Positions 2,738 through 24,009 of a stretch of DNA of 64,000 nucleotides are shown one piece after another. Origin of the DNA: Dictyostelium discoideum (Eukaryota). The notes beneath the pieces were generated by a model. That model made no database searches, had not been told where the DNA came from, and saw nothing but the letters and a program-made list of their open reading frames with translations. Position numbers and translations under genes: made by a program. Position 1 is the stretch's first letter, and each line of letters starts with the position of its first letter. Where the stretch lies: assembly GCA_000004695.1 (NCBI GenBank), contig CM000151.3:6624001-6688000 (forward strand), written 5' to 3'.

Positions 2738-3740
2738 GAAAATTTAATTATTTATCATTAATTTTTTATAAATGTATTTTTTTATTTGAAGAAAAATTGG
2801 AGGGAATATTCTTTAAATAAAAAAAATAGATACTAAAAAAAATAAAATTGATTTTATTGGATTGCCATGTGTAAGGCTTCGGTGTTTTATTAATATTTGT
2901 TCATTAGAAAAAAAAATAAATAAAAATATAAATAAAAATAAAAAAAAATTTTAAATTCTCCTGTTTAATTACAATAAATAATCCATTCTTCTATATTAAT
3001 TTTATTATTAAAAAAAAAAAAAAAAAAATAAAATAAAAACTAAAATTATAAAATTTAATTTAAGTTAAAAAATCAATATCGCTTTTTGTTTTTATAAAAA
3101 AATTAAAATTTTAAAATATATTTTTTTTAAAAAAAAAGAAAGTAAAACGAAAAGTAGAACTAATTTTAAAAATAAAAAAAAAAAATTATAAATTTTTAAA
3201 ATAAAATATCTTATTTATTTAAGTTGCCACATCATATTTTTTATAAAAAAAAATAAAAAAATAAAAAAACTAAAACAATCATCTTTCAAATTCTAAAAAG
3301 AATAGTGTGACATCACAGAAAAAAAAAAAAATTAAAAAAACTAAAAAAAAACTCTCGAACCAGAAGATGAATTCGTAAAATTAAAATATCTTTAATGATT
3401 TTTTTTTCATATGAAAATAATTTTAAAGGAATTATTTTTTTTTTTTTTTTTTTTTTTTTATTGGCCTTTAATAATTTGAATTAAAAAAATAAAAAAAAAA
3501 ATTCCAAAAAAATAAATTCTAAAAAAAATCTAAAAACTATTAATCATTATAAAAAATCAAGATATTTAGAAAAAAAAATTAAAAAAAAAACTATTTTTTT
3601 TTTTTTTTTTTTTTTTCGTCCATTGATATAAAAAACAATTCATTCTGTTTAAACATAAATTAGCTATTTAAAAAATAAATAAAATTTTAAAACAAATATA
3701 TATATAATAAATAAAAACAAAAAAAAAAAAAAAAAAAAAA

Positions 3741-4430
3741 ATGAAATTATTATTAACATTAATTTTAATAATTGTAAATTATTGTTGTTTCATAAATGCA
3801 AATAAATTATTTGTAAATTTTGTTGGATCATATAGTTCAAATACATGCGATGGTAATCCAAGTGGAATTGGTTTTTCTTTAGCTGTTGGCCAATGTCTTC
3901 CAATTGAAGGTGTTTTATCATATGTTATAAACGATATGCCACCAACTACCAATTGGTTCATTACAATGGGCGGCAATGGCAATAGTTTCACACTCAAGCA
4001 ATATGATAGCCAAGATCAATGGTGCAAACAAGACCCAATCAATACACTCCAATTCGATAATTTCGATACTTGCGTAGAACAACCAGCTTTCATCAATGTT
4101 AATAATTCTCTTCTTGCCGATACCCCTGTTGTTTATTCCAAATTAACTCTCTCCCAAAATGTTCCAACCTACGCTCCAGACTCTGTGATCATTGGTCAAT
4201 ACAATACAAATACTAATGTTTGTACCTACAATGATCAACAATTCGGTGTCTCTTACACCTCTGGTACTGTCATCTATAATGAAAATGGTATTTCAATTCA
4301 TGTCTTATGTAATCAAGTTAATCAATCAATGATGTTCAAATGTAAAGAAAGTAAATGCGGTGAAACCTTTATTGACACTTATTGTCAAATGTCTGGTGAT
4401 GTTCAAATTTATTGTAACTCAAATAATTAA
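3741..4430 (+). CDS. Secreted Cys-rich protein (229 aa), tandem paralog 1; possibly ponticulin-like family
   Basis: Intact ORF with an N-terminal hydrophobic signal peptide (MKLLLTLILIIVNYCCFINA) and spaced cysteines with repeated 'sYs..tC' / 'iGQYNTNTNVC' modules. About 60% identical to the next gene. The ponticulin-like assignment is from memory only. Confidence 0.7.
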   Translation: MKLLLTLILIIVNYCCFINANKLFVNFVGSYSSNTCDGNPSGIGFSLAVGQCLPIEGVLSYVINDMPPTTNWFITMGGNGNSFTLKQYDSQDQWCKQDPINTLQFDNFDTCVEQPAFINVNNSLLADTPVVYSKLTLSQNVPTYAPDSVIIGQYNTNTNVCTYNDQQFGVSYTSGTVIYNENGISIHVLCNQVNQSMMFKCKESKCGETFIDTYCQMSGDVQIYCNSNN

Positions 4431-4658
4431 AAATAAAAATAAAAATAAAAATATAAATAAAAATAAAAAATTAAACTACAATTTTTTTTATTTTATTATT
4501 TTGTTAACACTATTTAAAATTTAATATATTTTAATTAATCATTTATTAAAATCCATTTCTGAATTATTTTTATTTTATTTTATTTTTTTTTTTTTTATTT
4601 TTTTGTTTTTTTTTTCCCATTAACCATTTTTATTTTTTTCATAAAAAAAAAATATCTG

Positions 4659-4692
<34 letters not shown>

Positions 4693-4907
4693 GAAAAAAA
4701 AAGCAGATTCTAAAAATCAACTTTGGAATGAAAATATCTTGATTCTGGGGTGATGATAAAAGTCTATAGATTTTTATTTTTTTTTTTTAAAAATTGAAAA
4801 AATTAAAATTAAAAAAATAAAAATTAAAAAAATTATTCGTGTTTATTAAAGTTGATACATCATCATCATTTCATACTTTTTTTTTTAACATTAACAAATA
4901 ATTAAAA

Positions 4908-4909
4908 AA

Positions 4910-4988
<79 letters not shown>

Positions 4989-4990
4989 AT
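4908..4990. repeat. (AAAT)n microsatellite, about 20 units
   Basis: Direct read: aaataaataaat... immediately upstream of the second paralog's ATG. Similar tracts occur at 6388-6430 and 41950-42005. Confidence 0.95.
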
Positions 4991-4997
4991 TAAAAAA

Positions 4998-5375
4998 ATG
5001 AAATTATTATTTGGATTAATATTATTAATTGTAAATTATTGTTATTTAATTAATGCAAATAAATTATTTGTAAATTTTGTTGGAACTTATAATTCTGAAT
5101 CTTGTAGTGAAAGTCCAATTGGAACTGGTTTCTCTATGGCTCTTGGGCAATGTGTTCAAATGCAAGGTATTTTTTCTTATGTCACTAGTAGTTCACCAGA
5201 GGCAACAATTTGGATGGCAACATTGGGTGGTGATGGTAATAGCTTTACATTAAAACAATTCCATAGCTCTGATAAACTTTGTACTGAAGATCCAATAAAT
5301 ACTGTTAAATATAATAAATTTGATACTTGTGTTCAACAACCATCCTTCTTAACTTCAAATAATTCTCTCTTGGCC

Positions 5376-5435
<60 letters not shown>

Positions 5436-5732
5436 CTAGTTTATTCCAAATTAACTTTATCCCAAAATGCTCCTTCCTATGCCCCAAATTCTGTAATAAT
5501 TGCTCGTTACAATTCAAGTGATTCCGTTTGTAATTATAATAATCAAAACTATGGTATTTCTTATTCCACAGGTTCTGTAATCTATAATGAAAATGGTGTT
5601 TCTGTCTATGTTGTATGCGATCAATCAAACCAATCAATACTTTTCCACTGCCAAAATGATCAATGTGTTCAATCATTTACTGATACTTCTTGTGACATGC
5701 CACCAAATGACTTACAAATTTATTGTAACTAA
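4998..5732 (+). CDS. Secreted Cys-rich protein (244 aa), tandem paralog 2, with an internal poly-Asn (N20) insertion
   Basis: Intact ORF with a signal peptide (MKLLFGLILLIVNYCYLINA). It is collinear with 3741..4430 except for an (AAT)n-encoded N20 tract at 5386-5445. Confidence 0.7.
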
Positions 5733-5786
5733 TTATTAAATTAAAATAATAAAATAATAAAATAATAAAATAAAATAAAAAGTTGC

Positions 5787-5824
<38 letters not shown>

Positions 5825-6366
5825 TTATTTTTTTTTTTTTTTCCATTTATTATTATTTATTTTAATTTATTATTGTTGGAATATTTTTTAAATAAGTTTT
5901 GGTTTAATTGATAGATTGATTGATAGATCATATCTTTTTTAGTTTTTTATTTTTTTTTTTTTTTTTGTGACGCAAAGTTTGCCAACCAGAGTACTCACAA
6001 AATTTTCATTGAAAATAAATAAAATAAAAAAATAAAATTAAAAAAAAAATAAAATTAAAAAAAAAAAAATAAAAAAATTTTAAAAAATAAAAGAAAAAAA
6101 AAAAAAAACTTTATTAATTCAATTTAAAAAAAAATACTAATTTTCAATCAAATATTATTTCATTGTGTGTTTTATTTTTTAAAGGTTAGTAATAATTATT
6201 ATTATATAAATACAAGTTTATTATATATCTATTTCTTTATCGTGAATATTCATACAAGCACACACTCACACTTTTATAATATTGTGGTACAATATTGCAT
6301 TATTATATTTATTATTTTGATACAACACCACACTAAATATACTACAAAAATTTTTTTTTGGGAAGG

Positions 6367-6445
<79 letters not shown>

Positions 6446-6548
6446 ACAATAATAATAATAGTGTAACTGTATTTTATGTATATATAATTTTTAAATTATA
6501 AATAAAAAAAATAAAAAATAATAAAAAACAAAAAAAATAAATAAATAG

Positions 6549-6596
<48 letters not shown>

Positions 6597-6771
6597 AAAT
6601 TTCAAATTCTTACCCCTTTTATTTTTTTTATTTTTTCATAATATAAACCCACACAAAAATAAATAAATAAATAGATAAAAACAAATAATAATACTACTGT
6701 ATTTTTTTATTTTTTATTTTTTTATTTTTTTTATTTTTTTATTTTTTTTTTTTAAAATTTAATTTTTTTTT

Positions 6772-6805
<34 letters not shown>

Positions 6806-7151
6806 CCCAAAAATTCAAAAACTCAACTTAAACCCAAATCCATACTAAAATTATTATTACCCTATCCTTTCATTTAGACTATAATAGAATAATTTTAAAC
6901 ACCTAAAAATAAATAAATAGCTTATAAAAAAAATAATAAAAATAAATAGTTACCAACTAAATAAATAATAATTAAAAATTATAGTTAAAAATACCTTTTT
7001 AACAAATATCCAATATTTAAAAAAAAAATAAAAAAAAAAAAAAAATAATAATAAATAATAAAAAAAAATAAATAAATAATAATAATAATAATAAAATAAT
7101 AATAATAGCAACAATAAATAAAATAAAATAAAATAAAATAAAAAAAAAAGA

Positions 7152-8139
7152 ATGGAATCATATTCACCATCAATTCAAAAACTATGTGTTTTCTTAAAAC
7201 CAGAATCAGATATTTCAAACACTGGTATTTCATACTTAAATAATTTCCTCGCTGATATGAGCAATGCCATCATTGTTGAATCAATTCATAGTTCAAAATC
7301 ACATAAACACAAGACAATTCTAATTGAAGACATTGAATCAGCACTCAATGTTGTTTTCCCATCTGAAATTGCAGACTCAATTATTAATCAATCAAAAGGT
7401 CGTATTCAAAGTACTTCTTTAAAGAATTTAATGCAAGTTAAAACTTTTAATAATGGTGGTAATAATAATAATAATAATGAACAAGATAATGATCTACAAG
7501 AAAAAGAACAAAATGAATTATCAGATGATTCAGATGTTGAAGGATTTGAAATTATACCAAATAATAACAATATCTACTCACATGACGTTAGTCTTTGTTT
7601 TCCAATTGATTTGGTGTGTCGTGTAACATTGGATTACATTTGTAGAAAGAAGGTAATCCACCAGAATCCATCCGATTTCTACAAGGTGATAGAACAACAA
7701 CAATCGAATCACGTTATCTATACCTACATCTCTTATGCATTGGAGGTTATCACCACCAAGATTTTAATTAAAATTTCTTCATCCACAGACTTGATCGATG
7801 AAGATATCATCCGAAAAGTCATTCAAGATAATCATCATTTAAATTCAGTTCGTCATAAAAATATTCAAGCTTCAAATATTGCTGGTAAATTGTTAGATTC
7901 TTCTTCCTCTTCAAATTCTAATTTACAAACTTCCTTATCTTCTTCTTTTATTTTCTCTTCAAGTAGTAATAATACTACTACTTTTACACAACAAGAACAA
8001 CAAGAACAATTCAACGACGATAAAATTAGTGGTGATGAAATTGAATTTGAAATTAATAATAGTAAATATTTGGAAAAAGAGGATAAAAAAGATCAATTAA
8101 TTCAAAAAGATGAAGAAATTATTTTAAAAACTTTTAATG

Positions 8140-8208
<69 letters not shown>

Positions 8209-8576
8209 TTAATATTAATAACGATAATGATAATAATAATAATAATAATAAAAATAATGATAATAAAAATTATGATAATAATAATAATAATAATGCCGAT
8301 AAAATAGAAAAACTATCACCTGTAAATAATAATGTAAAAAATAGCGAAATTGAAAAAAATATAGAAAAATTAAAAAATATAAATAATAATAATAATGTTG
8401 AAATTAATGAAGCTTTAATTTCAATCATTAAAGAAACTTGTAAAAATATTCCTTCTTCATCATTTTCTTCTGTAAAAAACTTGAAACGTTCACCACCATC
8501 TTTATTTAAATTCAAAGAGCCAATCGATTTGGTTCAAGTTTTAGCTGAAGGAGGTATACATATGGAAGCAACGTGA
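7152..8576 (+). CDS. Histone H2B-fold protein (H2B variant-like) with a roughly 380-aa low-complexity C-terminal extension
   Basis: The N-terminal 95 aa align with the H2B globular core (ESYS...DTGIS...NFLADM...KHKTILIEDIESALNVVFP.EIA...SKG, versus H2B [78 protein letters not shown]). The remainder is Asn/Ser-rich. A GTGAGT at 8573 followed by ...caaacag at 8720 could add a short 3' exon; this is not resolved. Confidence 0.6.
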
Positions 8577-10942: not shown

Positions 10943-12269
10943 ATCATTATTATTAATAATATATTTTATATTTTTTATTTTATTTTATTTTAATTTAGAC
11001 ATTAAGTATATTATTAAAAAGTATATTTAGAAAGAAATTTAATAATTTTGGATTTGATATTTTAAATATTTTATGTGGTATAGAGAATTCAGATCAAGTT
11101 TTTACAGATATGATAAAAGATTTAGAACAATTATTAAAGAATTCAAGTATTGATAAAAAGGTTAAAATTGGTGTTATCAATTTATTTACAATCATTGCAA
11201 CAGCAACAGAATATATTAATCAAAATACACTCTTACAATACTTTATGTCTGTAAATATCTTTGATACATTGGTTACATTCTTGGGTGAAGATGATATTCC
11301 AAAACAAACTCAATTAAATATTCTCACTTTACTTTGTTACTTTTCAAACTTTCAAAAATATGAAATTACAAATCCATATTTAAAAGATTTATCAAATTTA
11401 TCTGATCCAATTAAAGTAAATTTAATAATTTAATAATTTAATAACTTAATTTTATATTTTATTATTAACATTTTTTTTTTTTTTTTTTCATATAATTTTA
11501 GATATTAAAAATTTTAAATTTAATAACACAAAATTTAAAAGATCATAATGAATTTTTTGAACAACAATATAGAGATCCAAATTTAGGTATGGTATCAAGA
11601 TTTAGTGGATATTTAAGTAGTTGGGTTTATTCACCTAAAGTAGTACAACCATTATCATTCTATGAAACTGGATCAAGTTTAATGATATTGTATGAATTAT
11701 TCTATCAAAATGATCATTTTGTAAACATGTTGGTAAAAGGTGGATTACCATTTGCAAATGGTGGTGAAAATGGTTCAACATGTCCAGATATCATTAAACA
11801 ATTCTTTAGTTTTTGTGCTTATTTAGCATCGGATGCTCAAAAGGATTTGAAAACCATTTACTCTAGAATGGCATTGTTAATATTACTTTGCATTTGTGAA
11901 AAGAGAGAATTGGAAGATTTCTTTCATGATATTAAATCAACTTGTTATATCTTTATCTACTCAAAGAAATCATTGTTCTCAGATCCAAAGGAAACTGAAA
12001 AACATCCTTTATCATGTTGGACATTGGATATTTTATCTCAATTCATCAAATGTAATCTCAAAGGTAAAATCTCAATGGATGTTCATCAAAGTGCTGTAGA
12101 TTGTATTCATCGTATAGTATCTTATAAAAAGAAAACTTTAAATCGTTTACCTTATAAATGGAGTGAACTTTGGAGTGCTTTATTCTCTTTAATTTCAATG
12201 GTTTCAACTTTAAATATTTCAAATGATAAAATTCAATTAAATCAATCAATTCATGTTGGTATAAGTGTA

Positions 12270-12947: not shown

Positions 12948-12966
12948 AAAAAAAAAAAAAAAAAAA

Positions 12967-12999
<33 letters not shown>

Positions 13000-13139: not shown

Positions 13140-14780
13140 TTAATTTAAATAATTTACTTTATTAAATGTTTTATCAATTAATGAATCTTGTTTACATTTT
13201 ATATTTTTGATATTTGTATTATCAATTTCTTGTTTATAATTATTTTTTTGATGATTTATGTAATTCAAACATGATTGTTCTAAATTAAAAGATTTATTTT
13301 CATTTATAATTTTTTCAATTTCAATTAAAATATTTGGTGATTTAATTTTAATTGATTTATTTAATTCAATGATTTTATTTACATCTTGAATATTTCTATC
13401 TTGATTTGAACCTTGAGATTTTGCAGTTGTAAAATAAAGTTTAGCTTGCATAAAATTTTGAGAAATACCTTCACCATTTAAGAAACATCTACCAACAGCT
13501 TCTAATGCTGGTGAATAATGATTTAAAGATGCACTCTTCATAAAGTATTCAAATCCTTTACATTGGTTTTTTAATACACCTTTACCATAGAATAAACAAA
13601 GTCCAAGATAATAAAATGTAATCTCTGGATTATGTTCTTGATGATGATCACAAATTGATGATTGATAAAATAAACGGTATGCTTCATTATAATCAATTGT
13701 AACTCCTCTACCATAATAAAAACAAATTCCTAATTTGGTTAATGAATTACTATCAACATTTAATGATGCTCCAATTTTAAAAAGATTAAATGCTTTGAAA
13801 TAATCTTGACATATTAAATTCAATTCTTCATTTTCACCACTGCCATCATCATGATCATCATGATTGTCAATGGTTTTAAAACCGTTATAATAATAATCAC
13901 CCAATAGAATTATTGAATCTTCATAAATAAATTCAGCACTTTTTAACAGATAATATTTTGATTTTATTAAATCTTTCTTTTGTTGTTTATAATAATTAAA
14001 TAATTCAAAATATGCTTTTGCATTATTTTGTTCAGCTGATTTAGTTAAATATTTTAATGACTTTTCAAAGTTTACACTATACCCATTCATTCCATAATAA
14101 TATGATGATCCAAGTAAACATTGCGCAATTGAATTTCCTTTTTCACTTTGTTTTTTTAAAAATTCTTTATTCTCTTTATTATATTGTTTTCTATCTAATA
14201 TTTCTTTTTCATCATTTTCATTCTCTTCTTCAATTTTATTTAAATTTCTATATGAACCATGTTTAATTAATGTTATATTTTCAATATTTAATAATTTAAT
14301 TTTTGGTAATGGTGGTGGTGAATTTGATCTTTGATTTTTATTATTATGATTTTCATTAATTTCTTTATTTTCATTATTTACATTATTTACATTATTTACA
14401 TTATTTTTATTATTATTATTATTATTATTATTAATATTATTATTATAATTATTATTATATTCATCAATTTCATTAAGTTCTAATTCAATTGATTTTGATT
14501 TTTTTTTTGGAATCCAAGGAAATTGGGTTATATTTATTTGATTATTATTATTATTATGAAAATGTGTTGTTTTTTCACATAAATTACAAATGACACAATT
14601 ACATAATATGCAATATTTTATAATTGGTTCATCATGTGTTGGACAATGAAATTTATCTATATTTTTAAATGATTTTAAATTATGTTGAAAATGATCAAAT
14701 TCTATGCAATCAACACAACATAAAGTTGTGCAATTTAAACACCACATAATATTTTTTTCATTATGAATTTTACAATCCAT
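13140..14780 (-). CDS. B-box zinc-finger + Sel1-like repeat protein (546 aa)
   Basis: N-terminal C/H-rich B-box-like motif (CLNCTTLCCVDCIEFDHFQHN...HCPTHDEPIIKYCILCNCVICNLCEKTTHFH). C-terminal Sel1/TPR-like repeats (LGxxYYxGxGVxxDxxEAxRLFxQSA...YYLGLCLFYGKGV...AVGRCFLNGEGI). A central poly-Asn linker separates them. Confidence 0.65.
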   Translation of the reverse strand: MDCKIHNEKNIMWCLNCTTLCCVDCIEFDHFQHNLKSFKNIDKFHCPTHDEPIIKYCILCNCVICNLCEKTTHFHNNNNNQINITQFPWIPKKKSKSIELELNEIDEYNNNYNNNINNNNNNNNKNNVNNVNNVNNENKEINENHNNKNQRSNSPPPLPKIKLLNIENITLIKHGSYRNLNKIEEENENDEKEILDRKQYNKENKEFLKKQSEKGNSIAQCLLGSSYYYGMNGYSVNFEKSLKYLTKSAEQNNAKAYFELFNYYKQQKKDLIKSKYYLLKSAEFIYEDSIILLGDYYYNGFKTIDNHDDHDDGSGENEELNLICQDYFKAFNLFKIGASLNVDSNSLTKLGICFYYGRGVTIDYNEAYRLFYQSSICDHHQEHNPEITFYYLGLCLFYGKGVLKNQCKGFEYFMKSASLNHYSPALEAVGRCFLNGEGISQNFMQAKLYFTTAKSQGSNQDRNIQDVNKIIELNKSIKIKSPNILIEIEKIINENKSFNLEQSCLNYINHQKNNYKQEIDNTNIKNIKCKQDSLIDKTFNKVNYLN

Positions 14781-15755: not shown

Positions 15756-16386
15756 TTGGTTGTATAATTATTTGTGTGAGAAAAAAAATAAAAAAAAAAT
15801 AAAAAAAAATGAAGAAAAAAAAAAAAGAAAAAAATTTGAAATTTTTTTTTTTATTATGTTTTTCTAAAAAAAAAAAGGGTTCTTTGAAAGTTAAAAATAA
15901 ACCCAAAAATTTTTCTCTAAAATCTGAGAAATTTTTTTAATCACATAATTTATATAGATCTGTATTTGAAAAAAATTAAAAAATATTAATCGGAAAAAAA
16001 AAAAATAAAAAAAATACTTTTTTTTTCCAAATTATATCTTTTTTTTTCTTTATTTTTTTGTTTTTTTTTTATTTTTTTTTTTGAAACAGTTGTTTCTCTT
16101 TGGGATACTTATTCTCGTTTCATTTTTATTTTTTTTTAATTCGACACTGTTGGTTTTTGTTTTTTGTTGCTGTTGCTATTCTATGTTTGTTTGTTTTGTT
16201 TTTTGTTGCTGTTGCTATCCAATGGTTGCTTTGAGCCTAAGGCCTCAGAATACTCAATTCCAGCACTTTAGAATCAAACTCCGGTCTTCCTTTTTTATAA
16301 TTTCTCCTTTTTCTCATTAAATTTTTTTTCAAATAATCAATTTTTTCTCTTATAAATTTTAGCCAAAAAAATCAAATTTCATCTAA

Positions 16387-16459
16387 GCCCGTTTAGCAAA
16401 GTTGGAATTGCGGCAGCCTTCTAAGCTGCAGGTCGTGGGATCGAGACCCACAATGGGTG
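16387..16459 (+). tRNA. tRNA-Arg (anticodon UCU), copy 1
   Basis: Cloverleaf read by eye: acceptor GCCCGTT/AATGGGT (two G-U pairs), A box TAGCAAAGTTGG, D-stem GCAA/TTGC, anticodon stem GCAGC/GCTGC with loop CTTCTAA, T-arm GTGGG-ATCGAGA-CCCAC. An identical copy lies in inverted orientation at 23152..23224. Confidence 0.75.
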
Positions 16460-16490
16460 ATATTTTTAACTGGGAAATTTATAGATCGCA

Positions 16491-16503
16491 GGTTCAATGT
16501 CTG
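16491..16503 (+). promoter_or_regulatory. External B box (exB) downstream of tRNA-Arg copy 1
   Basis: GGTTCAATGTCTG lies 32 bp after the tRNA 3' end. Dictyostelium tRNA genes typically carry an extra B box about 30-40 bp downstream. The same spacing is seen at 22448..22459 (-), 23108..23120 (-) and 56481..56492 (-). Confidence 0.6.
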
Positions 16504-16649
16504 ATATGAAGATACACGTGAAAAGTAATTCATCCTTTTCTATCCTTAATCTCGGTCAATTTTAACCAATCTTTCAAAAAAAATCACCAATCCACCACGA
16601 TCTACAGATCTAACTTACCAAATCGCCGATTCAAAGGAATCCCATCGAG

Positions 16650-17903
16650 ATGAATTCCTACGCAGACGCGGCTAAAATGGCCAACCCCTCCACCCATATG
16701 GACGAGGCATCAGAGAACTTCATTAAGGAATTCTCCACAAAAACAGCAGAGATAAAGGAGACCTACCCCAAATTATCAATAGGCCTCAAAGACATCTCCA
16801 AATACTGCGAGACCATATTGAACATGACTGCTCTCTCAACCTACGAGAAAAACAACGGATTCTACCCAATTACACTCGAATTCCCCAAAATGGATCTCAT
16901 GGGGTTAGAAGAAATGAGAAAAACACTCTCAAACTACGATATCCCAATCGACAAGATATACATAGGCAAAGGAACTAGAAAAACGATCCACCTGATGATT
17001 AAAAACGAACAATCTCTCCTAAATATCATTAGAGATAGAAGCAAATTGGGAACCTTCATCACCTCCAGTAGAGACTACCACGTCCTCACAGGAAGAGTAA
17101 GAATTCCAAGAGAAAAGGCAGGAATAGTGGACGCCCTCATCAAAACTGCCTTTGCAGAAGAAATACCCTATGCAATATACCATACTATATACTCCACCGA
17201 CCACCTCCTAGTATTCGGTCTAATAGAATGCAAAATAGGCGATCAAATGAAATCTGGCCAACACAATACAGAAATCGCCAACTTTACCATCAGAACGGCC
17301 ACCAAAACCTACTCCTCACAAAAGAAAAATAAGAAAGTAGAGTCAAACAACACGGAAGAACCATTAGAAGATGAGATGACAGATGATCCTCCCAACATCC
17401 AAAACAGGATAGCAATCAAATCCTCTCAACCAAAACCACAACAACAAACATACAACCCAGCAAACAATAAGTCTGATAAACAATCAACCCAAGAGAAAAA
17501 AGCCCAATCAAAAAAGTCCTCTCAACCTCTTCCCCCCAAAAACCAAGCAGAATCTCAATCTGTCAAACCCACCACAACCACTACCACAACATCCAACGCC
17601 ATCCAAAAAGACAATGCCAACAAAACGAGCACTAACATCCATTCATCCTCGGAAAACAGAGAGAAGACACCAAACATCCCTCCATCACATAAACGCAAGA
17701 ACGAGGAAATCCACTCAAACAACGAGGTCACCCAACTCTCACCAACAATAAACAGAAGCAACCCTTACATCCCATCCACCCCTAAGACACCTGTCAAAAA
17801 AGAAAGGAAAGGAATCATTGAGAGCTTCATAGAGAGTATCTACCCTTCACCATCCAAACCGCAGCTATACGACTCCCAAGAGGAGATCGATATCATCTCA
17901 TAA
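16650..17903 (+). CDS. Retrotransposon ORF1 (417 aa)
   Basis: GC-richer than the host DNA. Basic/Ser-Thr-rich C-terminus. Its stop overlaps the ORF2 ATG (TAATG). Confidence 0.75.
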   Translation: MNSYADAAKMANPSTHMDEASENFIKEFSTKTAEIKETYPKLSIGLKDISKYCETILNMTALSTYEKNNGFYPITLEFPKMDLMGLEEMRKTLSNYDIPIDKIYIGKGTRKTIHLMIKNEQSLLNIIRDRSKLGTFITSSRDYHVLTGRVRIPREKAGIVDALIKTAFAEEIPYAIYHTIYSTDHLLVFGLIECKIGDQMKSGQHNTEIANFTIRTATKTYSSQKKNKKVESNNTEEPLEDEMTDDPPNIQNRIAIKSSQPKPQQQTYNPANNKSDKQSTQEKKAQSKKSSQPLPPKNQAESQSVKPTTTTTTTSNAIQKDNANKTSTNIHSSSENREKTPNIPPSHKRKNEEIHSNNEVTQLSPTINRSNPYIPSTPKTPVKKERKGIIESFIESIYPSPSKPQLYDSQEEIDIIS

Positions 17904-20900
17904 TGGTAGTAATCAAAATCAACCAATGGAATGTCAGAGGTTGGGGCACTGACACCTCCTTCAAAAACAAAACAGACTTTATCAAATCCCAATCCCCCCC
18001 AAACTCATTGGCACTAACCATAGTCAATGAACTCAACGCCGACGCAACACAAGCACACCAGCTATTTCCTGGCTCCATCATTAGCGCAACCAACAGAGGC
18101 AACGGAATAGGAATACTAAACCACAACAACCAAAACATAAAACTCTCACCAATATTCATAATAGAAGGTAGACTAATAATATCAGACATTCTAATAAAAG
18201 ATACCACAACGAGAATCTTGGCCATATACGCCCCGGCCCAACCTGATAAGGGAAAAATACTAGCTTGAACACTAAACAAACACTTGAACAACCAATACCA
18301 CAACCTAACGTCTAACCCTAAAAAAAACATCGACATCATAGCAGGTGACTTCAATTGTTTAGACTTCAATGACAATCACACATCAAATGACGACCAAGGC
18401 AACTTGACAACACAATCCCCAGATGAGATGGCCACAGTAATTGAAGCCATCAGAATTTCAAATAACCTAATGGATATGGACCAACTAAATAAAAGACCCA
18501 CCTTCTCAAGAACGATACACAACACAAACAATAACCTCACAAGAATCTTGGAAAGGAGACTAGACAGAATATACCTTAACAATAGCATAATCAACTACAG
18601 TCAATTATACTTAAGGAACCTAATCCCCCCAAAAATTAACGACATACCTCTATCAGATCACAACTTCCTATCAACCACCTTCACTCTACCCAACATACAG
18701 ACGAACATGCGCAGATGGAGATTAAAAAAATCCTCAATCCTCTCAAGCATAATGCTTAAGAAAATAGACATCCTACTTAACGATTATTCAAGGGAGCTGT
18801 CATCCAACCATAACTCTATTTCCTTCTCTCAACTCAACAGCTTACTGAACAAAATAAAACAACTATACACAGAATTTCAAAAACAAAACGACTACAACAA
18901 TAAGGCAAACATCAAAAATCTAATCTCCCTACTAGAGACAGAATTTAAAGACCAAGCCTTTGCAACCCTTTCAGCAATAAATGAATCTAAAAGAAGAGAA
19001 GAACAACTTAAACAAGAATTGAACAACTATTGCGAAGAAACCTCACTCAAGTACATCTCCGCGAGAATCAAGAAAAGACACAATGATTTCACCATCAACG
19101 CAGTAAAAGATACACAAGGTAGAACAATCAACAAACAGGAATTGATCGAAGAAGAATACGTAAAATATTACTCAAATCTTTATGACTACAAAGAAGATGA
19201 CCCACCATCTCATTATGAAATGTTGGAAAATTGGACAGTGACCAGGGACTCAACATGGGACAACCTTGAAAATGAATTCACATCACAAGAGATCCTAGAA
19301 GTAATAAAACAATTGAACCCACACAAATCTCCAGGCCCAGATGGAATTCCAAACTTATTCTACATAACACACAAAGAAAAACTAGCTCCAATACTGGCCT
19401 CAGCATTCAACGACACTCTAAGAAATCCTCATCTAATTAGCAAAAATTACAAAGAAGGCCTCATTATCACGATACCTAAAAAGGGAGATCCCGAACTAAT
19501 CAAAAACAGAAGACCAATTACACTGGCCAACTGTATATATAAAATCCACTCAAAACTAATAAACAATAGAATAATCCCAATACTAACGAAAGTGATCAAC
19601 CACAATCAAAAAGGTTTCGTACCAGGCAGATTCATTCTCGATAATATCATATCAATTAACGAATTAATCAACTATTGTAATGATAAAAGAATTAACGGAA
19701 TAATTACACTATATGATTTCGAAAAAGCTTTTGACTCGATCTCACACGGTTCAATACTCAGATCACTACAACACATCAACATTCCAACCAATATAATCAA
19801 CCTGATAATGAATCTACTCACCAAATCTGAGGCAAGAATTGAAATTAATGGTAGAACTACTATACCCTTTGAGATCAAAAGAGGAGTTAAACAAGGAGAT
19901 CCACTATCACCCACCCTGTTCGTCCTTGTAATAGAGGCTTTAGCTAGAAAAATTTTACAAGATGACCGAATTACTGGCCTTCCTCTAAACAACAGCAACC
20001 ACAGAGAGAAATTCCAAAGCTTTGCAGACGATTCGGCTTCAATGGTCCCAGACTCTCAACAACTTGAATTAGTACTACAACACTTCAATTCATTTTGCAA
20101 AGCCACTTCCTCAAAACTAAACATCGACAAATCTTCATCAATTCTTATAGGCAACCCAGACAATACCAACCAAAGAATTCCAATATCTACAAATCCAGAA
20201 AGATACTTGGGATACTTCTTCACAGGCAAAGGGATAACAAGAAAAATGCCAGAAATATTAAACACAATAAGATCATCCTTAGTACTATGGAAAACCACTG
20301 ACTCAACAATCAAAACCAAAACCAACATCCTCAAAGCATTCGCACTCTCTAAATTAACCTACTATTCATATGTAGAGAACTTTAAGGAAGAGGAATTAAA
20401 CCAAATCAATAAATTGGTCGAATGGTTTTTATCGGCACCTAACAACAAAAATGCTAGTGGATTTCAAGTTATTAATTTAATGAGAACCAAAAGAGCAAGA
20501 TACCCACTAAATGTAGGGGGCTGGAACATTTGGAATATAGAATTGAGACAACTGGCGCAGAAACTTTGGATCATAAACCAGTTCATCCTAGCACTAGAAA
20601 CCAAACAAACAAACTCATCTCATCACAAAAGCTGGGAATATCAGATCCAAAAAAACAAATTCACATCCAGATACCTAAAAGAAAACTTAGACGAATGGAA
20701 CAAAATAAGAATAAAAAAAGCAATCTTCAACAATAATCTCACATCCATAAAAAACGAAAATGGACAACCACTTTCACTGGCAGAATGGTATACCACAATT
20801 CAAGACCAAAATCCAACCATCCCTAAAACGGAATTCCAATCATCTCTAAACTTAAGAGGCTACAGCTATAATCAACTCTTCAACAACATACTGAAGATAA

Positions 20901-21493
20901 AAGACCCTAAAACAAGAGACACAATGTTTAGATTCCATGCCAGATGCCTTCCAATAAACTACCTTCACAACAAACAATGCCCACTCTGCAAAGAAGATAT
21001 GAGCAAAGACCCATACGGTCACCTGTTCTTCTCATGCAAGAAAACAAAACAATTCATAAAAATAAATAAACTCAAAAATTTCATCTATATTACCACAGGC
21101 AAAGGTAAAAACTGGCACCATACAAACTTTGAATGGAACTATAAAGCAATAGACTATGATCTAACTAGATCATTCGCATATAGAAACCTAATGGCCCTTA
21201 TCCTCCACAACATTTGGATTTGGATTTGCAATCAAATATACAGTGAAGATCCTTTAACAGATGAATCACTATCATACAGCTCCCTTCTAAAGAAATGGCA
21301 CAAATTGGCCACTCTAGAATACATCAAAAAAGCAAAAGATCTGAAAAACTTATCAGCAAAAGACCATAATAACTTCAAAGATCCTAAGATCCTTCTCACT
21401 TCAACGATCAAGCTAAGAAAAACAACAGCTAATTACTATTGTATTCCAGAATCATCTCTCCCAAATATTATATCTTTTGATCAATTCATATGA
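17903..21493 (+). pseudogene. Retrotransposon ORF2 (endonuclease-RT-zinc finger) interrupted by a single in-frame TGA at 18266..18268
   Basis: Track ORFs 17903..18268 and 18284..21493 are in the same frame (both coordinates are 2 mod 3). They are separated only by TGA, within the endonuclease domain. Confidence 0.75.
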
Positions 21494-21590
21494 TTAAAAT
21501 AACCCTTCAGCTTAAATGATAAGCCTTTAAATAAATATTAAATAAAACTCGTATTAACACAGATGGACATATATCAATCTTGTTAATCCA

Positions 21591-21626
<36 letters not shown>

Positions 21627-21822
21627 CCTACAGTTGATCAAACGGATACTAGATACAGAAAAACATATCCATCATCAATCTAACATCAACTCCCAAATAT
21701 TATATCTTTTGATCAATTCATATGATTAAAATAACCCTTCAGCTTAAATGATAAGCCTTTAAATAAATATTAAATAAAACTCGTATTAACACAGATGGAC
21801 ATATATCAATCTTGTTAATCCA

Positions 21823-21860
<38 letters not shown>
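21459..21860 (+). repeat. Tandem duplication of the element's 3' terminus: the last 35 nt of ORF2, the 3' UTR and poly(A), present twice
   Basis: 21459..21625 and 21691..21860 are near-identical (ctcccaaatattatatcttttgatcaattcatatgattaaaataaccc...aatattaaaaaa(A)n). A 65-bp unique spacer separates them. Both copies lie inside the TSD-bounded element. Confidence 0.9.
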
Positions 21861-21864
<4 letters not shown>

Positions 21865-21871
21865 GAAGATA

Positions 21872-22150
21872 AATTAAAAAATCAAACTTATTATACCACC
21901 ATATATGAAGAAAGATCATGAAATTAACATAGACTACATTCATATAAGATTTCACACTTCGTATGGTGCTATAGATCTATATATTATGACCTTTCAAGAC
22001 TTTTCTCATTAAAAAACTTAAAAGCAATGATATTTCACTAGGTATGGATATGGATTTGCAATCAACTATACAGTGATGACAAAATTCAAGCCACAAAATT
22101 AGACTATGATATGATCCTTAAAAAATAGTACAAATCCGCACCTTAGTTTG
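21872..22150 (+). mobile_element. Diverged remnant of a related retrotransposon ORF2 3' region
   Basis: 22050..22085 (ggatatggatttgcaatcaactatacagtgatgac) matches ORF2 at 21220..21250 (tggatttggatttgcaatcaaatatacagtgaagatcc). 'agactatgat' is also shared. The rest is degenerate. Confidence 0.45.
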
Positions 22151-22490
22151 CTTTATAATTCCTCATTGGGTATATATATTAGAATTTTTTTTTTTTTTTT
22201 TTTAAATATTGATTGATCAGTGTTTATCCATTAAAGGAAATAAACAATAAACCATTAATGGTTTTATATGTGGATTTTAATTTTAAAACATAGTGTAGTT
22301 ATAGTTATTATTATTATCATTTTTATGTTAGTCCAAAAAAATTAAACAAATCAAATAATAAAATTAACTATTTTATTAAATTGGAAAGTTGATTTAAATC
22401 TTTTTCATTTTATAGAGCATACGATTTCTCAATCATAGTTGAATATTGAGAATCGAACCTGTTATCAGTAAATCTTACTGGGGAAAACAT

Positions 22491-22573
22491 TGCAAGAGGC
22501 GAGATTCGAACTCGCGAACCGAATGGATGAGATCTTAAGTCACACGGATTTAACCAGACTTTCCTACCCTTGC
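22491..22573 (-). tRNA. tRNA-Leu (anticodon UAA) with a long variable arm
   Basis: Minus-strand read: GCAAGGG-TA-GGAAAGTCTGGTTAAATCC-G-TGTGA-CTTAAGA-TCTCA-TCCATTCGGTTC-GCGAG-TTCGAAT-CTCGC-CTCTTGC-A. T-arm GCGAG/TTCGAAT/CTCGC, a 12-nt variable arm, and an exB box GGTTCGATTCTC at 22448..22459. Confidence 0.65.
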
Positions 22574-23151
22574 TTTGGATGGAAATTTTATTTTATTGGT
22601 TTTTAAACCTGGCACCATCATCCCATAGAAAAACTAAAAACTCTCATCCATAAATCATAATTGAGAAGCAATTGTGTATAAAATACATTTTTGATAGATC
22701 TATAAAAAAGAAAAGATCAGATTCCAAAAAAAGATTGTTTCACCAAATTATTTTCTATGGTTTGCTAGGCATTTTCAAAACAAAAATAATATTTTTTTAA
22801 TTTTTTTTTTTTAGGTCATTTTTTCCCAGTTATTTATTAATGTTTGGGTTATTACTCTTTCTTTTAAAATAATTTAATGTTTGCCATCAAATCTATCAAA
22901 AATATAATTTAAAAATTTCTTTTTTAAATTGGACTATGTGGTTTCAATTTTTTCACTGATATTACTTTCATATGCATTATTTTATAATGGTCGTAGAAAT
23001 ATTTCATTGTTTAAAATTTATATGTAAAAAAAGAGAATATATTGGAATATCCAAAATCACTTGGAATACTAGACCCAATTATGTGATGATGTTTTTGAAT
23101 GAATGATCAGACATCGAACCTACGATCAATATTTTCTTTGGCATAAAGATT

Positions 23152-23224
23152 CACCCATTGTGGGTCTCGATCCCACGACCTGCAGCTTAGAAGGCTGCCG
23201 CAATTCCAACTTTGCTAAACGGGC
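23152..23224 (-). tRNA. tRNA-Arg (anticodon UCU), copy 2, inverted relative to copy 1
   Basis: Exact reverse complement of 16387..16459 (73/73). The downstream exB box (rc GGTTCGATGTCTG at 23108..23120) is conserved, but the spacer between has diverged. Confidence 0.75.
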
Positions 23225-24009
23225 TTTGATGAAATTTGTAAATATTTATTTAAAATTTATAAGTTGATATTATAAAATTATAAAATTATTACACATCGAT
23301 CGAAACCCTATGATACTATTATCGGCATATTTTTTAAATGAGATACACATTTTGGATATTAAATCAAAGCTCTCTTTATTTTAATTGGAAGAGACTCTTT
23401 TGGAAAAAAAATTTGGGAATTAAACAAAAGTCCTCTTTAAATTGGGTGAAAAATGGATAAATTGAAAAAAAAAAAAAAACAATTGAGTTTTATGGCAAAA
23501 GTCTTGATTAAAAAAAAAAATAGTGACAAACTTAAAGATCTTTTTGGTAGTGAGATATTAAATTTTTTTTTTTGTTTTTTTTAAATTTTCCTTTTTATTT
23601 TAACTTTTCCAAAAATTTGGTTATTTTTTTTTTTTTGTTCCTCCAAAAAAAGATTTTTTAATTGAAAAAAAAAAAATTTTCAAAAAAAAAAAAATAAAAA
23701 TAAAAATAAAATAAAATAAAATAAAAAAAAAAAATAAAAAAAAAAAAAAAAAGAAAACAAAAACAAAAACAAAAACAAAAATTTTAAATACTGTTTTAAT
23801 CAGTTAATCTAAGAGTAAAACATAAAAAAAAAAAAAAATAAAAACAAAATAAAATAAAAACAAAAAAAAAGAAAAGAAAAAAAAAAAAAAAAGAATTTTT
23901 TAAAAAAGAAAATTTCCTCTTAGATGAAATAATATTATAATAATAACAATCAGTTTTGTTTGAATAAATAAAAATAAAAAAAATAAAATTTATGTTTTTA
24001 AATTTTTAT

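What the first reader, a model, noticed from the sequence alone, without database searches (positions are those of the whole stretch)
21459..21860. Internal tandem duplication of the retrotransposon 3' end (ORF2 tail + 3' UTR + poly-A, twice) inside the target-site duplication
The two 3' termini (21459..21625 and 21691..21860) are separated by a 65-bp non-element spacer, yet both lie inside the single target-site-duplication pair. This fits template jumping or re-priming during target-primed reverse transcription, or insertion of a severely 5'-truncated second copy into the first copy's poly-A before the flanking duplication was scored. Such twin-tail structures are informative about the integration mechanism.
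Basis: seen in the sequence. Interest (0 to 1): 0.55.

Follow-up and report, generated by a model that had tools for sequence, protein, structure and literature searches.

The report
Retrotransposon copy carrying a second tail
A Dictyostelium TRE3-A jumping gene sits next to a tRNA gene with its tail present twice, and the 64 bases between the tails come from the landing zone of another tRNA gene elsewhere in the genome, so the element most likely carried a piece of its previous neighbourhood along when it moved.

Summary
Positions 21458-21625 and 21690-21857 are 168/168 identical. Each holds the last 12 ORF2 codons, the stop, the 3' UTR and A30. A 64-nt spacer separates them, and one 11-bp target-site duplication (ATATGAAGATA) encloses everything. 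An independent D. discoideum assembly has the same structure (A29 instead of A30), so it is not an assembly artefact.

The element is a slightly 5'-truncated TRE3-A, 45-56 bp downstream of tRNA-Arg(UCU). Twelve other TRE3-A tails have a single tail and no spacer, so this is not a family feature.

The spacer is not anonymous. Its nt 12-64 are 53/53 identical to the reconstructed empty site 64-116 bp downstream of a tRNA-Leu(AAG) gene at another locus. That sequence resembles the TRE3-A 5' head.

Where TRE3-A hit one site repeatedly elsewhere, a duplication copy lies between the units. Here none does.

Best reading (about 0.5): a read-through transcript of a tandem array at another locus (full element, 64 nt, truncated tail) was retrotransposed as one unit, a 3' transduction. 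The main rival is template jumping. I could not search the genome for the source locus.

This is an ordinary kind of event, well documented here. Interest is modest.

The parts
16387..16459 (+). tRNA-Arg(UCU) gene, the targeting landmark for the insertion
   Evidence: ARAGORN. [quoted passage not shown]
16491..16501 (+). external B-box-like motif GGTTCAATGTC, just upstream of the insertion point
   Evidence: Read from the sequence. Conserved in the empty site of the divergent strain (L004). The role of external B boxes in TRE3 targeting is from PMC5911963.
16504..16514 (.). left copy of the target-site duplication ATATGAAGATA; its last 5 nt (AGATA) are also microhomology with the TRE3-A head
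   Evidence: The head alignment starts at head position 28, AGATACACGTG.
16515..21457 (+). TRE3-A body. It is 5'-truncated by 27-32 nt. ORF1 is 16650-17903. ORF2 is 17903-21493, with an in-frame TAG at 18266-18268 and a 114-nt in-frame deletion at about 21125.
   Evidence: ORFs and translations. ORF1 is 98% identical to D. discoideum TRE3-A ORF1 clusters and ORF2 is 91-99% identical to TRE3-A ORF2 proteins. Canonical head from 11 copies. Deletion.
21458..21625 (+). tail 1: last 12 ORF2 codons, TGA, 3' UTR (to 21595) and internal poly-A A30 (21596-21625)
   Evidence: 100% identical to the tails of L003 and L006-L010.
21626..21689 (+). 64-nt spacer. Nt 12-64 equal the reconstructed empty site 64-116 bp downstream of tRNA-Leu(AAG) in locus L006. 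It resembles the TRE3-A 5' head. Nt 1-11 (GCCTACAGTTG) are of unknown origin.
   Evidence: Spacer nt 12-40 equal L006 6793-6821 and nt 32-64 equal L006 12964-12996, both at 100%. Head similarity is reached by 0/2000 and 2/1000 shuffles. The 21-mer motif is otherwise found only in TRE3-A heads. No Rfam match.
21690..21860 (+). tail 2: the same 138 nt as tail 1 (21690-21827) plus terminal poly-A A33 (21828-21860). A 2-nt overlap (CT) with the L006 sequence lies at its 5' junction.
21861..21871 (.). right copy of the target-site duplication ATATGAAGATA

Best explanation
The insert is a single retrotransposition product of a composite RNA, that is, a 3' transduction. At a source locus elsewhere in the genome, a full-length TRE3-A lay head-to-tail 64 nt upstream of a severely 5'-truncated TRE3-A tail. 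Both were downstream of a tRNA gene, and the 64 nt between them were landing-zone DNA (probably the 5' head of another TRE3-like element). Transcription of the full-length copy read through its own 3' end and internal A-run, crossed the 64 nt and ended at the poly-A site of the second tail. Target-primed reverse transcription then started on that terminal poly-A at a nick 45 bp downstream of tRNA-Arg(UCU). It copied tail 2, the spacer, A30 and the whole element to within about 30 nt of its 5' end. The cDNA was joined to the target through an AGATA microhomology, giving one 11-bp duplication around everything.

Shown: the structure, the single duplication, the foreign origin of the spacer, the microhomology, and that tandem TRE3-A arrays of the required kind are common.

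Inferred: the read-through transcript and the existence of the source locus.
For: (1) One duplication encloses both tails, and no copy of it lies between them.

(2) Sequential TRE3-A insertions elsewhere always leave a duplication copy or host DNA between units. L006 has AGAAAAACA three times and L011 has TATTGT... three times. The L003 mini-tail has its own duplication, and L009 and L010 have a duplication copy plus host DNA.

(3) Spacer nt 12-64 are 53/53 identical to DNA 64-116 bp downstream of a tRNA-Leu(AAG) gene at another locus. That lies inside the 40-150 bp TRE3 target zone, where two nearby TRE3-A insertions are expected (PMC5911963).

(4) Arrays of the needed form, a full element followed by a short gap and a truncated tail, exist. 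L003 is full element, A24, 39 nt, 17-nt tail, A27. L006 and L011 are similar. Five of the nine other full-length copies have another TRE3-type unit directly downstream.

(5) This family does carry flanking DNA along. The L006 copy holds 10 nt of the L009 copy's flank at its 5' end.

(6) The AGATA microhomology at the 5' junction lies at the end of the left duplication copy. This is the normal geometry of a single event.

(7) The site of tail 2 is 5.2 kb from the tRNA-Arg gene. An independent targeted insertion there would break the family's rule.
Against: The source locus was not found. Only about 250 kb of D. discoideum DNA could be fetched. In the one place where the spacer sequence occurs (L006), the arrangement is different: the insertions are at spacer nt 40, not flanking nt 1 and 64.

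None of 12 other TRE3-A tails shows a 3' transduction, so read-through is at best infrequent. The two tails are identical, so one poly-A site must have been skipped and its twin used.

The first 11 nt of the spacer are unexplained. They could be the source copy's own duplication, or the true 5' end of another element's RNA, which would favour template jumping.
Confidence: 0.5

Rival explanations
1. Template jumping within one integration event. Reverse transcription began on a short RNA made of the 64-nt head of another TRE3-like element fused to a 168-nt TRE3-A tail. Such an RNA could be transcribed from a truncated TRE3-A inserted in that element's 5' UTR. Alternatively, the fusion was made by an internal template switch at the CT microhomology. 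The enzyme ran off the 5' end of that RNA, jumped to the poly-A tail of a full-length TRE3-A RNA and copied it.
For: There is a single duplication and no internal copy. The spacer resembles the TRE3-A 5' head and aligns from about head position 4-7, so it may begin at an RNA 5' terminus. It begins with G, as cap-derived extra nucleotides often do (PMC3159450). In L006 the same sequence lies where a TRE3-like element (APE and RT genes directly downstream) should begin. The L007 copy carries a 24-nt re-copied head in front of its full head, which suggests 5'-end template switching in this family.
Against: It needs one or two rare jumps plus a special short RNA. Cis-preference would favour an enzyme that starts on its own RNA. 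The head homology rests mainly on about 30 nt, and the first 11 nt differ from L006. This reading is no simpler than read-through of a tandem array, which needs only one ordinary integration.
Confidence: 0.27
2. Two sequential insertions. Either the short unit (spacer plus tail 2) inserted first with the ATATGAAGATA duplication and the full element later landed exactly at its 5' boundary without making a duplication. Or the short unit inserted later into the poly-A of the full element, with an invisible oligo-A duplication.
For: TRE3-A re-uses the same sites repeatedly (L006 and L011). 5'-truncated TRE5-A insertions can come with target-site deletions (PMC3159450). The full element here is 5'-truncated.
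Against: In every sequential case sampled, a duplication copy or host DNA separates the units; here A30 abuts the spacer directly. A later insertion into the poly-A would lie 5.2 kb from the (+)-strand tRNA gene. It would also be in the wrong orientation for the nearby (-)-strand tRNA-Leu, against the 40-150 bp same-orientation rule. Either version still needs a separate origin for the foreign 64 nt on the short unit.
Confidence: 0.13
3. Element-internal repeat of the family, like the duplicated B-module of TRE5-A, or a DNA-level tandem duplication or assembly artefact.
For: TRE5-A has a duplicated module in its consensus (PMC5006619; PMC3159450). The two copies are 100% identical, which would fit a very recent duplication or an artefact.
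Against: None of 12 other TRE3-A tails has the spacer or a second tail without an intervening duplication copy. An independent assembly reproduces the structure with a 1-nt poly-A difference. A local duplication cannot supply 53 nt identical to another locus.
Confidence: 0.03

Closest known systems
3' transduction by human LINE-1 (read-through of the element's poly-A signal; Moran 1999, Goodier 2000, Pickeral 2000; cited from my own knowledge)
   Same: The order is element, internal A-run, non-element DNA from the source locus, second poly-A, all inside one target-site duplication. The carried DNA matches sequence from a different locus.
   Different: Here the carried segment ends in a second copy of the element's own tail, because TRE3-A copies pile up head-to-tail behind tRNA genes. 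The result therefore looks like a tail duplication. The source locus has not been identified. I found no report of this for TRE3 in the papers I could search.
[quoted passage not shown]
   Same: Several RNA-derived pieces lie in one orientation inside one duplication. One piece may start at an RNA 5' end.
   Different: In those chimeras the 5' partner is usually a small nuclear RNA without an internal poly-A. Here the 5' partner would be a full-length poly-adenylated element and the chimera would have three parts.
Tandem TRE3-A arrays made by repeated insertion behind one tRNA gene (seen here in L003, L006, L009, L010, L011)
   Same: Head-to-tail TRE3-A units with a truncated tail just downstream of a full element.
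   Different: Those arrays keep a duplication copy or host DNA of the same locus between units. The window's pair has neither, and the DNA between its units comes from another locus.
TRE5-A modular structure with a duplicated B-module (PMC5006619, PMC3159450)
   Same: A Dictyostelium tRNA-targeted non-LTR element with a repeated terminal segment.
   Different: The B-module duplication is part of the TRE5-A consensus. The TRE3-A twin tail is specific to this copy.

Membership tests
TRE3-A (Tdd-3) non-LTR retrotransposon of D. discoideum | ORF1 and ORF2 (endonuclease, reverse transcriptase, zinc finger) homologous to TRE3-A | tested here: met
   ORF1 is 98% identical to the ACTFIT_004280 cluster (37 members). 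ORF2 is 91-99% identical to D. discoideum proteins that carry PF00078. Nucleotide identity to 10 other copies is 97-100%.
TRE3-A (Tdd-3) non-LTR retrotransposon of D. discoideum | Insertion 40-150 bp downstream of a tRNA gene, in the same orientation | tested here: met
   The duplication starts 45 nt and the element 56 nt after tRNA-Arg(UCU) 16387-16459, both on the + strand. The rule is from PMC5911963. Other copies follow the same pattern: L001-L003, L006, L007 and L009-L011.
TRE3-A (Tdd-3) non-LTR retrotransposon of D. discoideum | Single 3' UTR ending in an oligo-A, flanked by a target-site duplication | tested here: not met
   The duplication is present, but the 3' end occurs twice. Twelve other tails are single. 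This copy is a member with an aberrant 3' end.
3' transduction (LINE read-through product) | Element 3' end, non-element DNA and a second poly-A, all inside one target-site duplication | tested here: met
3' transduction (LINE read-through product) | The carried DNA is the 3' flank of an identifiable source copy | tested here: inconclusive
   53/53 nt match tRNA-downstream DNA at L006, but L006 does not have the required arrangement. No whole-genome search was possible. Metagenome and prokaryote scans gave nothing.
Sequential same-site insertion (tandem array) | A duplication copy or local host DNA between successive units | tested here: not met
   A30 abuts the spacer, and ATATGAAGATA is absent between the units. 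Compare L006, L011, L003, L009 and L010.
Twin priming | Two segments of the element in inverted orientation | tested here: not met
   Both tails are direct repeats on the + strand.
Template-switch chimeric retrocopy | The internal piece starts at the exact 5' end of a cellular or element RNA | tested here: inconclusive
   The spacer aligns to the TRE3-A head from about head position 4-7. However, its first 11 nt differ from the only other copy (L006), and no full-length copy of that element was available.

The most novel reading that the evidence does not exclude
The second unit (64-nt head of another TRE3-like element plus 168-nt TRE3-A tail plus poly-A) is the retrocopy of a short chimeric RNA. 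That RNA would be driven by the other element's 5' promoter and mobilised in trans by TRE3-A, making it a SINE-like passenger. It became joined to a full-length TRE3-A because the reverse transcriptase jumped end-to-end from its 5' terminus to the poly-A of a second RNA in vivo. This would be a natural record of end-to-end template jumping and of trans-mobilisation in a tRNA-targeted LINE.
Probability: 0.22. Interest if true: 0.5.

Novelty: new member of a known kind. Interest (0 to 1): 0.3.

Why it matters
The copy is a natural record of how a tRNA-gene-targeted LINE of Dictyostelium handles its 3' end. Either its transcripts sometimes read through into the next element of a tandem array and carry flanking DNA to new sites, or its reverse transcriptase switches templates during integration.

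Together with the 5' flank carry-over seen between two other copies, it offers sequence tags for tracing parent and daughter TRE3-A copies. Such tags could show which copies are active. It has no evident consequence for the host. The phenomena themselves are well known from mammalian L1.

Tried and rejected
- **Spacer from within the window:** self-BLAST of the element and the spacer against the window found no second copy of the spacer and no other TRE3-A.
- **Spacer as a small RNA:** an Rfam scan at E up to 10 gave nothing over the spacer.
- **Family consensus feature:** rejected, because 12 other tails are single.
- **Assembly artefact:** rejected by the independent assembly.
- **Nested duplication around either unit:** none found.
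- **Twin priming:** rejected, because there is no inversion.
- **Spacer similar to flanks of the tRNA genes already in hand:** not significant, apart from a hit that led to the TRE3-A head.
- **Failed exact-protein look-ups:** window ORF1, the kinesin fragment and the 1021-aa ORF2, and AX4 proteins P0001 and P0004, were not on record.
- **Collection scans for the spacer:** JGI metagenomes and GTDB genomes gave 0 hits. Neither collection holds the Dictyostelium genome, so this says nothing about it.
- **Older TRE3/Tdd-3 papers:** Gloeckner 2001 and Marschalek 1990 are not held in the library.
- **Other copies of the L006 landing-zone sequence in the fetched loci:** none found.

Full report
**What the window is.** The window is about 20% G+C. 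Its proteins match Dictyostelium discoideum. The B-box/Sel1 protein at 13140-14780(-) is identical to DDB_G0276271 of AX4, whose record is the 8.48-Mb chromosome 2.

**The element.**
- The segment 16515-21860 has higher G+C with a strong A>T and C>G skew.
- It encodes a 417-aa ORF1 (16650-17903) and an ORF2 (17903-21493) with one in-frame TAG.
- ORF1 is 98% and ORF2 91-99% identical to D. discoideum proteins, the latter with reverse-transcriptase domains.
- tRNA-Arg(UCU) lies at 16387-16459 on the same strand. The insertion starts 45-56 nt after it, just past a B-box-like GGTTCAATGTC.
- This is the published behaviour of TRE3 elements: 40-150 bp downstream of tRNA genes, same orientation, guided by internal or external B boxes (PMC5911963).
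- The element is a TRE3-A.

**Checking the observation.**
- Positions 21458-21625 and 21690-21857 are identical over 168 nt.
- The unit is the last 12 codons of ORF2, TGA, about 100 nt of 3' UTR and A30. The second copy ends in A33.
- The spacer is 64 nt (21626-21689) and is unique in the window.
- ATATGAAGATA occurs at 16504-16514 and 21861-21871, directly abutting the two outer ends. No other direct repeat flanks either unit.
- The orthologous locus of an independent assembly (GCA_054883475.1, L005) is 99.75% identical over 12.5 kb. It has both tails and the identical spacer, and it differs only by A29 versus A30. The structure is real.
- A more divergent D. discoideum strain (GCA_054859385.1, L004) lacks the whole insertion. 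Its alignment to the window stops at 16513, the insertion point.

**Is it a family feature?**
- I fetched ten other loci from GCA_054883475.1 with TRE3-A copies. L001 and L002 are truncated. L003 and L006-L012 are full length, and L009 and L010 each begin a second full-length copy.
- Twelve independent tails match the 138-nt tail at 98.6-100%.
- Each is followed by one A-run (A19-A30) and then the element's own duplication copy or flank.
- None has the spacer. The twin tail is specific to this copy.
- All copies whose 5' end is intact start with (A)AACCG(C/T)ACCGC(G/T)ATCAAGAGGATACAAGATACACGTG.
- The window's copy starts at AGATACACGTG. It is therefore 5'-truncated by 27-32 nt, and the AGATA overlaps the end of the left duplication copy. 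This is a typical microhomology junction.

**Where the spacer comes from.**
- In L006, spacer nt 12-40 are found 100% identical at 6793-6821. Spacer nt 32-64 are found 100% identical at 12964-12996.
- L006 has a tRNA-Leu(AAG) gene at 6648-6729.
- Downstream of that gene, a 5'-truncated and then a full-length TRE3-A inserted at the same nicks. As a result AGAAAAACA(T) is present three times: 6813-6821, 12080-12089 and 12964-12973.
- Removing the insertions gives an empty site identical to spacer nt 12-64 (53/53). It lies 64-116 nt after the tRNA gene, inside the TRE3 landing zone.
- The next two bases (CT) are shared by L006 and by the start of tail 2.
- Spacer nt 1-11 (GCCTACAGTTG) differ from L006.
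- The sequence is also similar to the TRE3-A 5' head (ATCAAACGGATACTAGATACA versus ATCAAGAGGATACAAGATACA). No shuffle in 2000 and 2 in 1000 reach the alignment score.
- In about 500 kb of both strands, the 21-mer with up to 5 mismatches is found only in TRE3-A heads and in this sequence.
- In L006 it is followed by about 190 nt and then by ORFs of a third, distantly related non-LTR element with endonuclease and reverse-transcriptase domains, about 25% identical to TRE3-A ORF2.
- The spacer is therefore probably the start of the 5' UTR of another TRE3-like element that sits in a landing zone. This last step is inference from one copy.

**How repeated insertions look in this family.**
- L006 and L011 show same-site re-insertion with the duplication present three times.
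- L003 has a 17-nt tail plus A27 with its own duplication (TTCTGGGTA), 39 nt after a full copy.
- L009 and L010 have a second full copy after a duplication copy and 27-51 nt of local DNA.
- Tandem arrays are therefore common: five of nine other full-length copies have one. Sequential origin always leaves a duplication copy or local DNA between the units.
- The window's pair has A30 directly followed by DNA from another locus, and one outer duplication.
- The position of tail 2 is 5.2 kb from the (+)-strand tRNA gene. Its orientation is wrong for the (-)-strand tRNA-Leu at 22491-22573.
- An independent later insertion there would break the family's targeting rule.

**Mechanism.** The simplest account is one integration event of a composite template.

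*3' transduction (confidence about 0.5).* At a source locus of the L003/L006 type, a full TRE3-A lay 64 nt upstream of a 168-nt truncated TRE3-A tail. A read-through transcript ended at the second tail and was reverse-transcribed as a unit. This needs only one ordinary integration. It satisfies cis-preference. It also explains why the intervening DNA is landing-zone DNA from elsewhere. The family demonstrably carries flank along: the L006 copy has AAGAGATCAA between its duplication and its head, which is the duplication and flank of the L009 copy.

*Template jumping (about 0.27).* This means an end-to-end jump from a short head-plus-tail RNA to the poly-A of a full-length RNA, or two jumps. 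The possible start of the spacer at an RNA 5' terminus favours it, as does the re-copied 24-nt head in L007. End-to-end jumping and cap-derived extra G residues are cited for this element group in PMC3159450.

*Sequential insertion with a blunt or invisible junction (about 0.13).* A consensus repeat, a local duplication or an artefact is essentially excluded (about 0.03).

**What could not be done.** The tools hold no searchable D. discoideum genome. Look-ups by exact protein were the only access, and all twelve were used. The source locus was therefore not sought genome-wide. This search is the decisive test.

**Verdict.** It is a copy-specific aberration of a known retrotransposon, made by a known kind of process. 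That process is most likely 3' transduction of a tandem array, with template switching as the alternative. The interest is modest.

Noticed in passing
L006 6822-6833 versus L009 about 6820-6833 and the bases after its A19 run: The L006 TRE3-A has AAGAGATCAA(AA) between its duplication and its head. This matches the target-site duplication TAAGAGATCAA that flanks the L009 copy. Transcription evidently started at least 10 nt upstream of the L009 copy (or a sibling), and that flank was carried to L006. This is a 5' transduction that links parent and daughter.
   Followed up: partly
L007 6810-6846; L008 and L010 about 6822-6833: The L007 copy has a 24-nt partial re-copy of its own head (AACCGCACCGCGATCAAGAGGATA plus AAA) in front of the complete head. 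L008 and L010 have GATAAAA and GATAAACAAAA there. These look like template switching or re-priming at the RNA 5' end, or flank inherited from a common parent.
   Followed up: partly
L006 6813-6821, 12080-12089, 12964-12973; L011 after 12060: Two successive TRE3-type insertions used exactly the same nick sites, so the same target-site duplication is present three times. The position of the nicks behind a tRNA gene appears to be tightly fixed.
   Followed up: partly
window about 21125: The window's ORF2 lacks 114 nt (38 codons, in frame) that all seven fully fetched full-length copies (L006-L012) keep. The missing stretch is bounded by the near-repeats ACAAGAAT and ACAAAGAAT.
   Followed up: partly
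window 17798-18286: Five of the six base differences between the window and GCA_054883475.1 over 12.5 kb cluster here, inside the element. The window's in-frame TAG at 18266-18268 is TAC in the other assembly, so the premature stop may be a sequencing error or a very recent change in one line.
   Followed up: no
L004 about 3660-8280 (the region corresponding to window 16514-22442): The divergent strain GCA_054859385.1 has about 4.6 kb with two epimerase-like genes between the tRNA-Arg and tRNA-Leu genes. The window has the TRE3-A and TRE3 relics there instead. This is a structural difference between strains at this tRNA cluster.
   Followed up: no
window 21872-22300: Relics of other TRE3 subfamilies lie here. 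A + strand ORF2 fragment at 21928-22140 is about 47% identical at the protein level. A - strand truncated tail ends in T18 at 22186-22203, downstream of the (-)-strand tRNA-Leu(UAA) at 22491-22573.
   Followed up: partly
window 16349-16505 and 23106-23263: The two tRNA-Arg(UCU) genes (16387-16459 on + and 23152-23224 on -) share about 87-88% identical flanks over about 157 nt in inverted orientation, including the external B-box region.
   Followed up: no
L002 6966-7100: The poly-A of a truncated TRE3-A is followed directly by the ORF2 end and stop of a different TRE3 subfamily in the same orientation. This is another head-to-tail pile-up. Its junction was not analysed.
   Followed up: no
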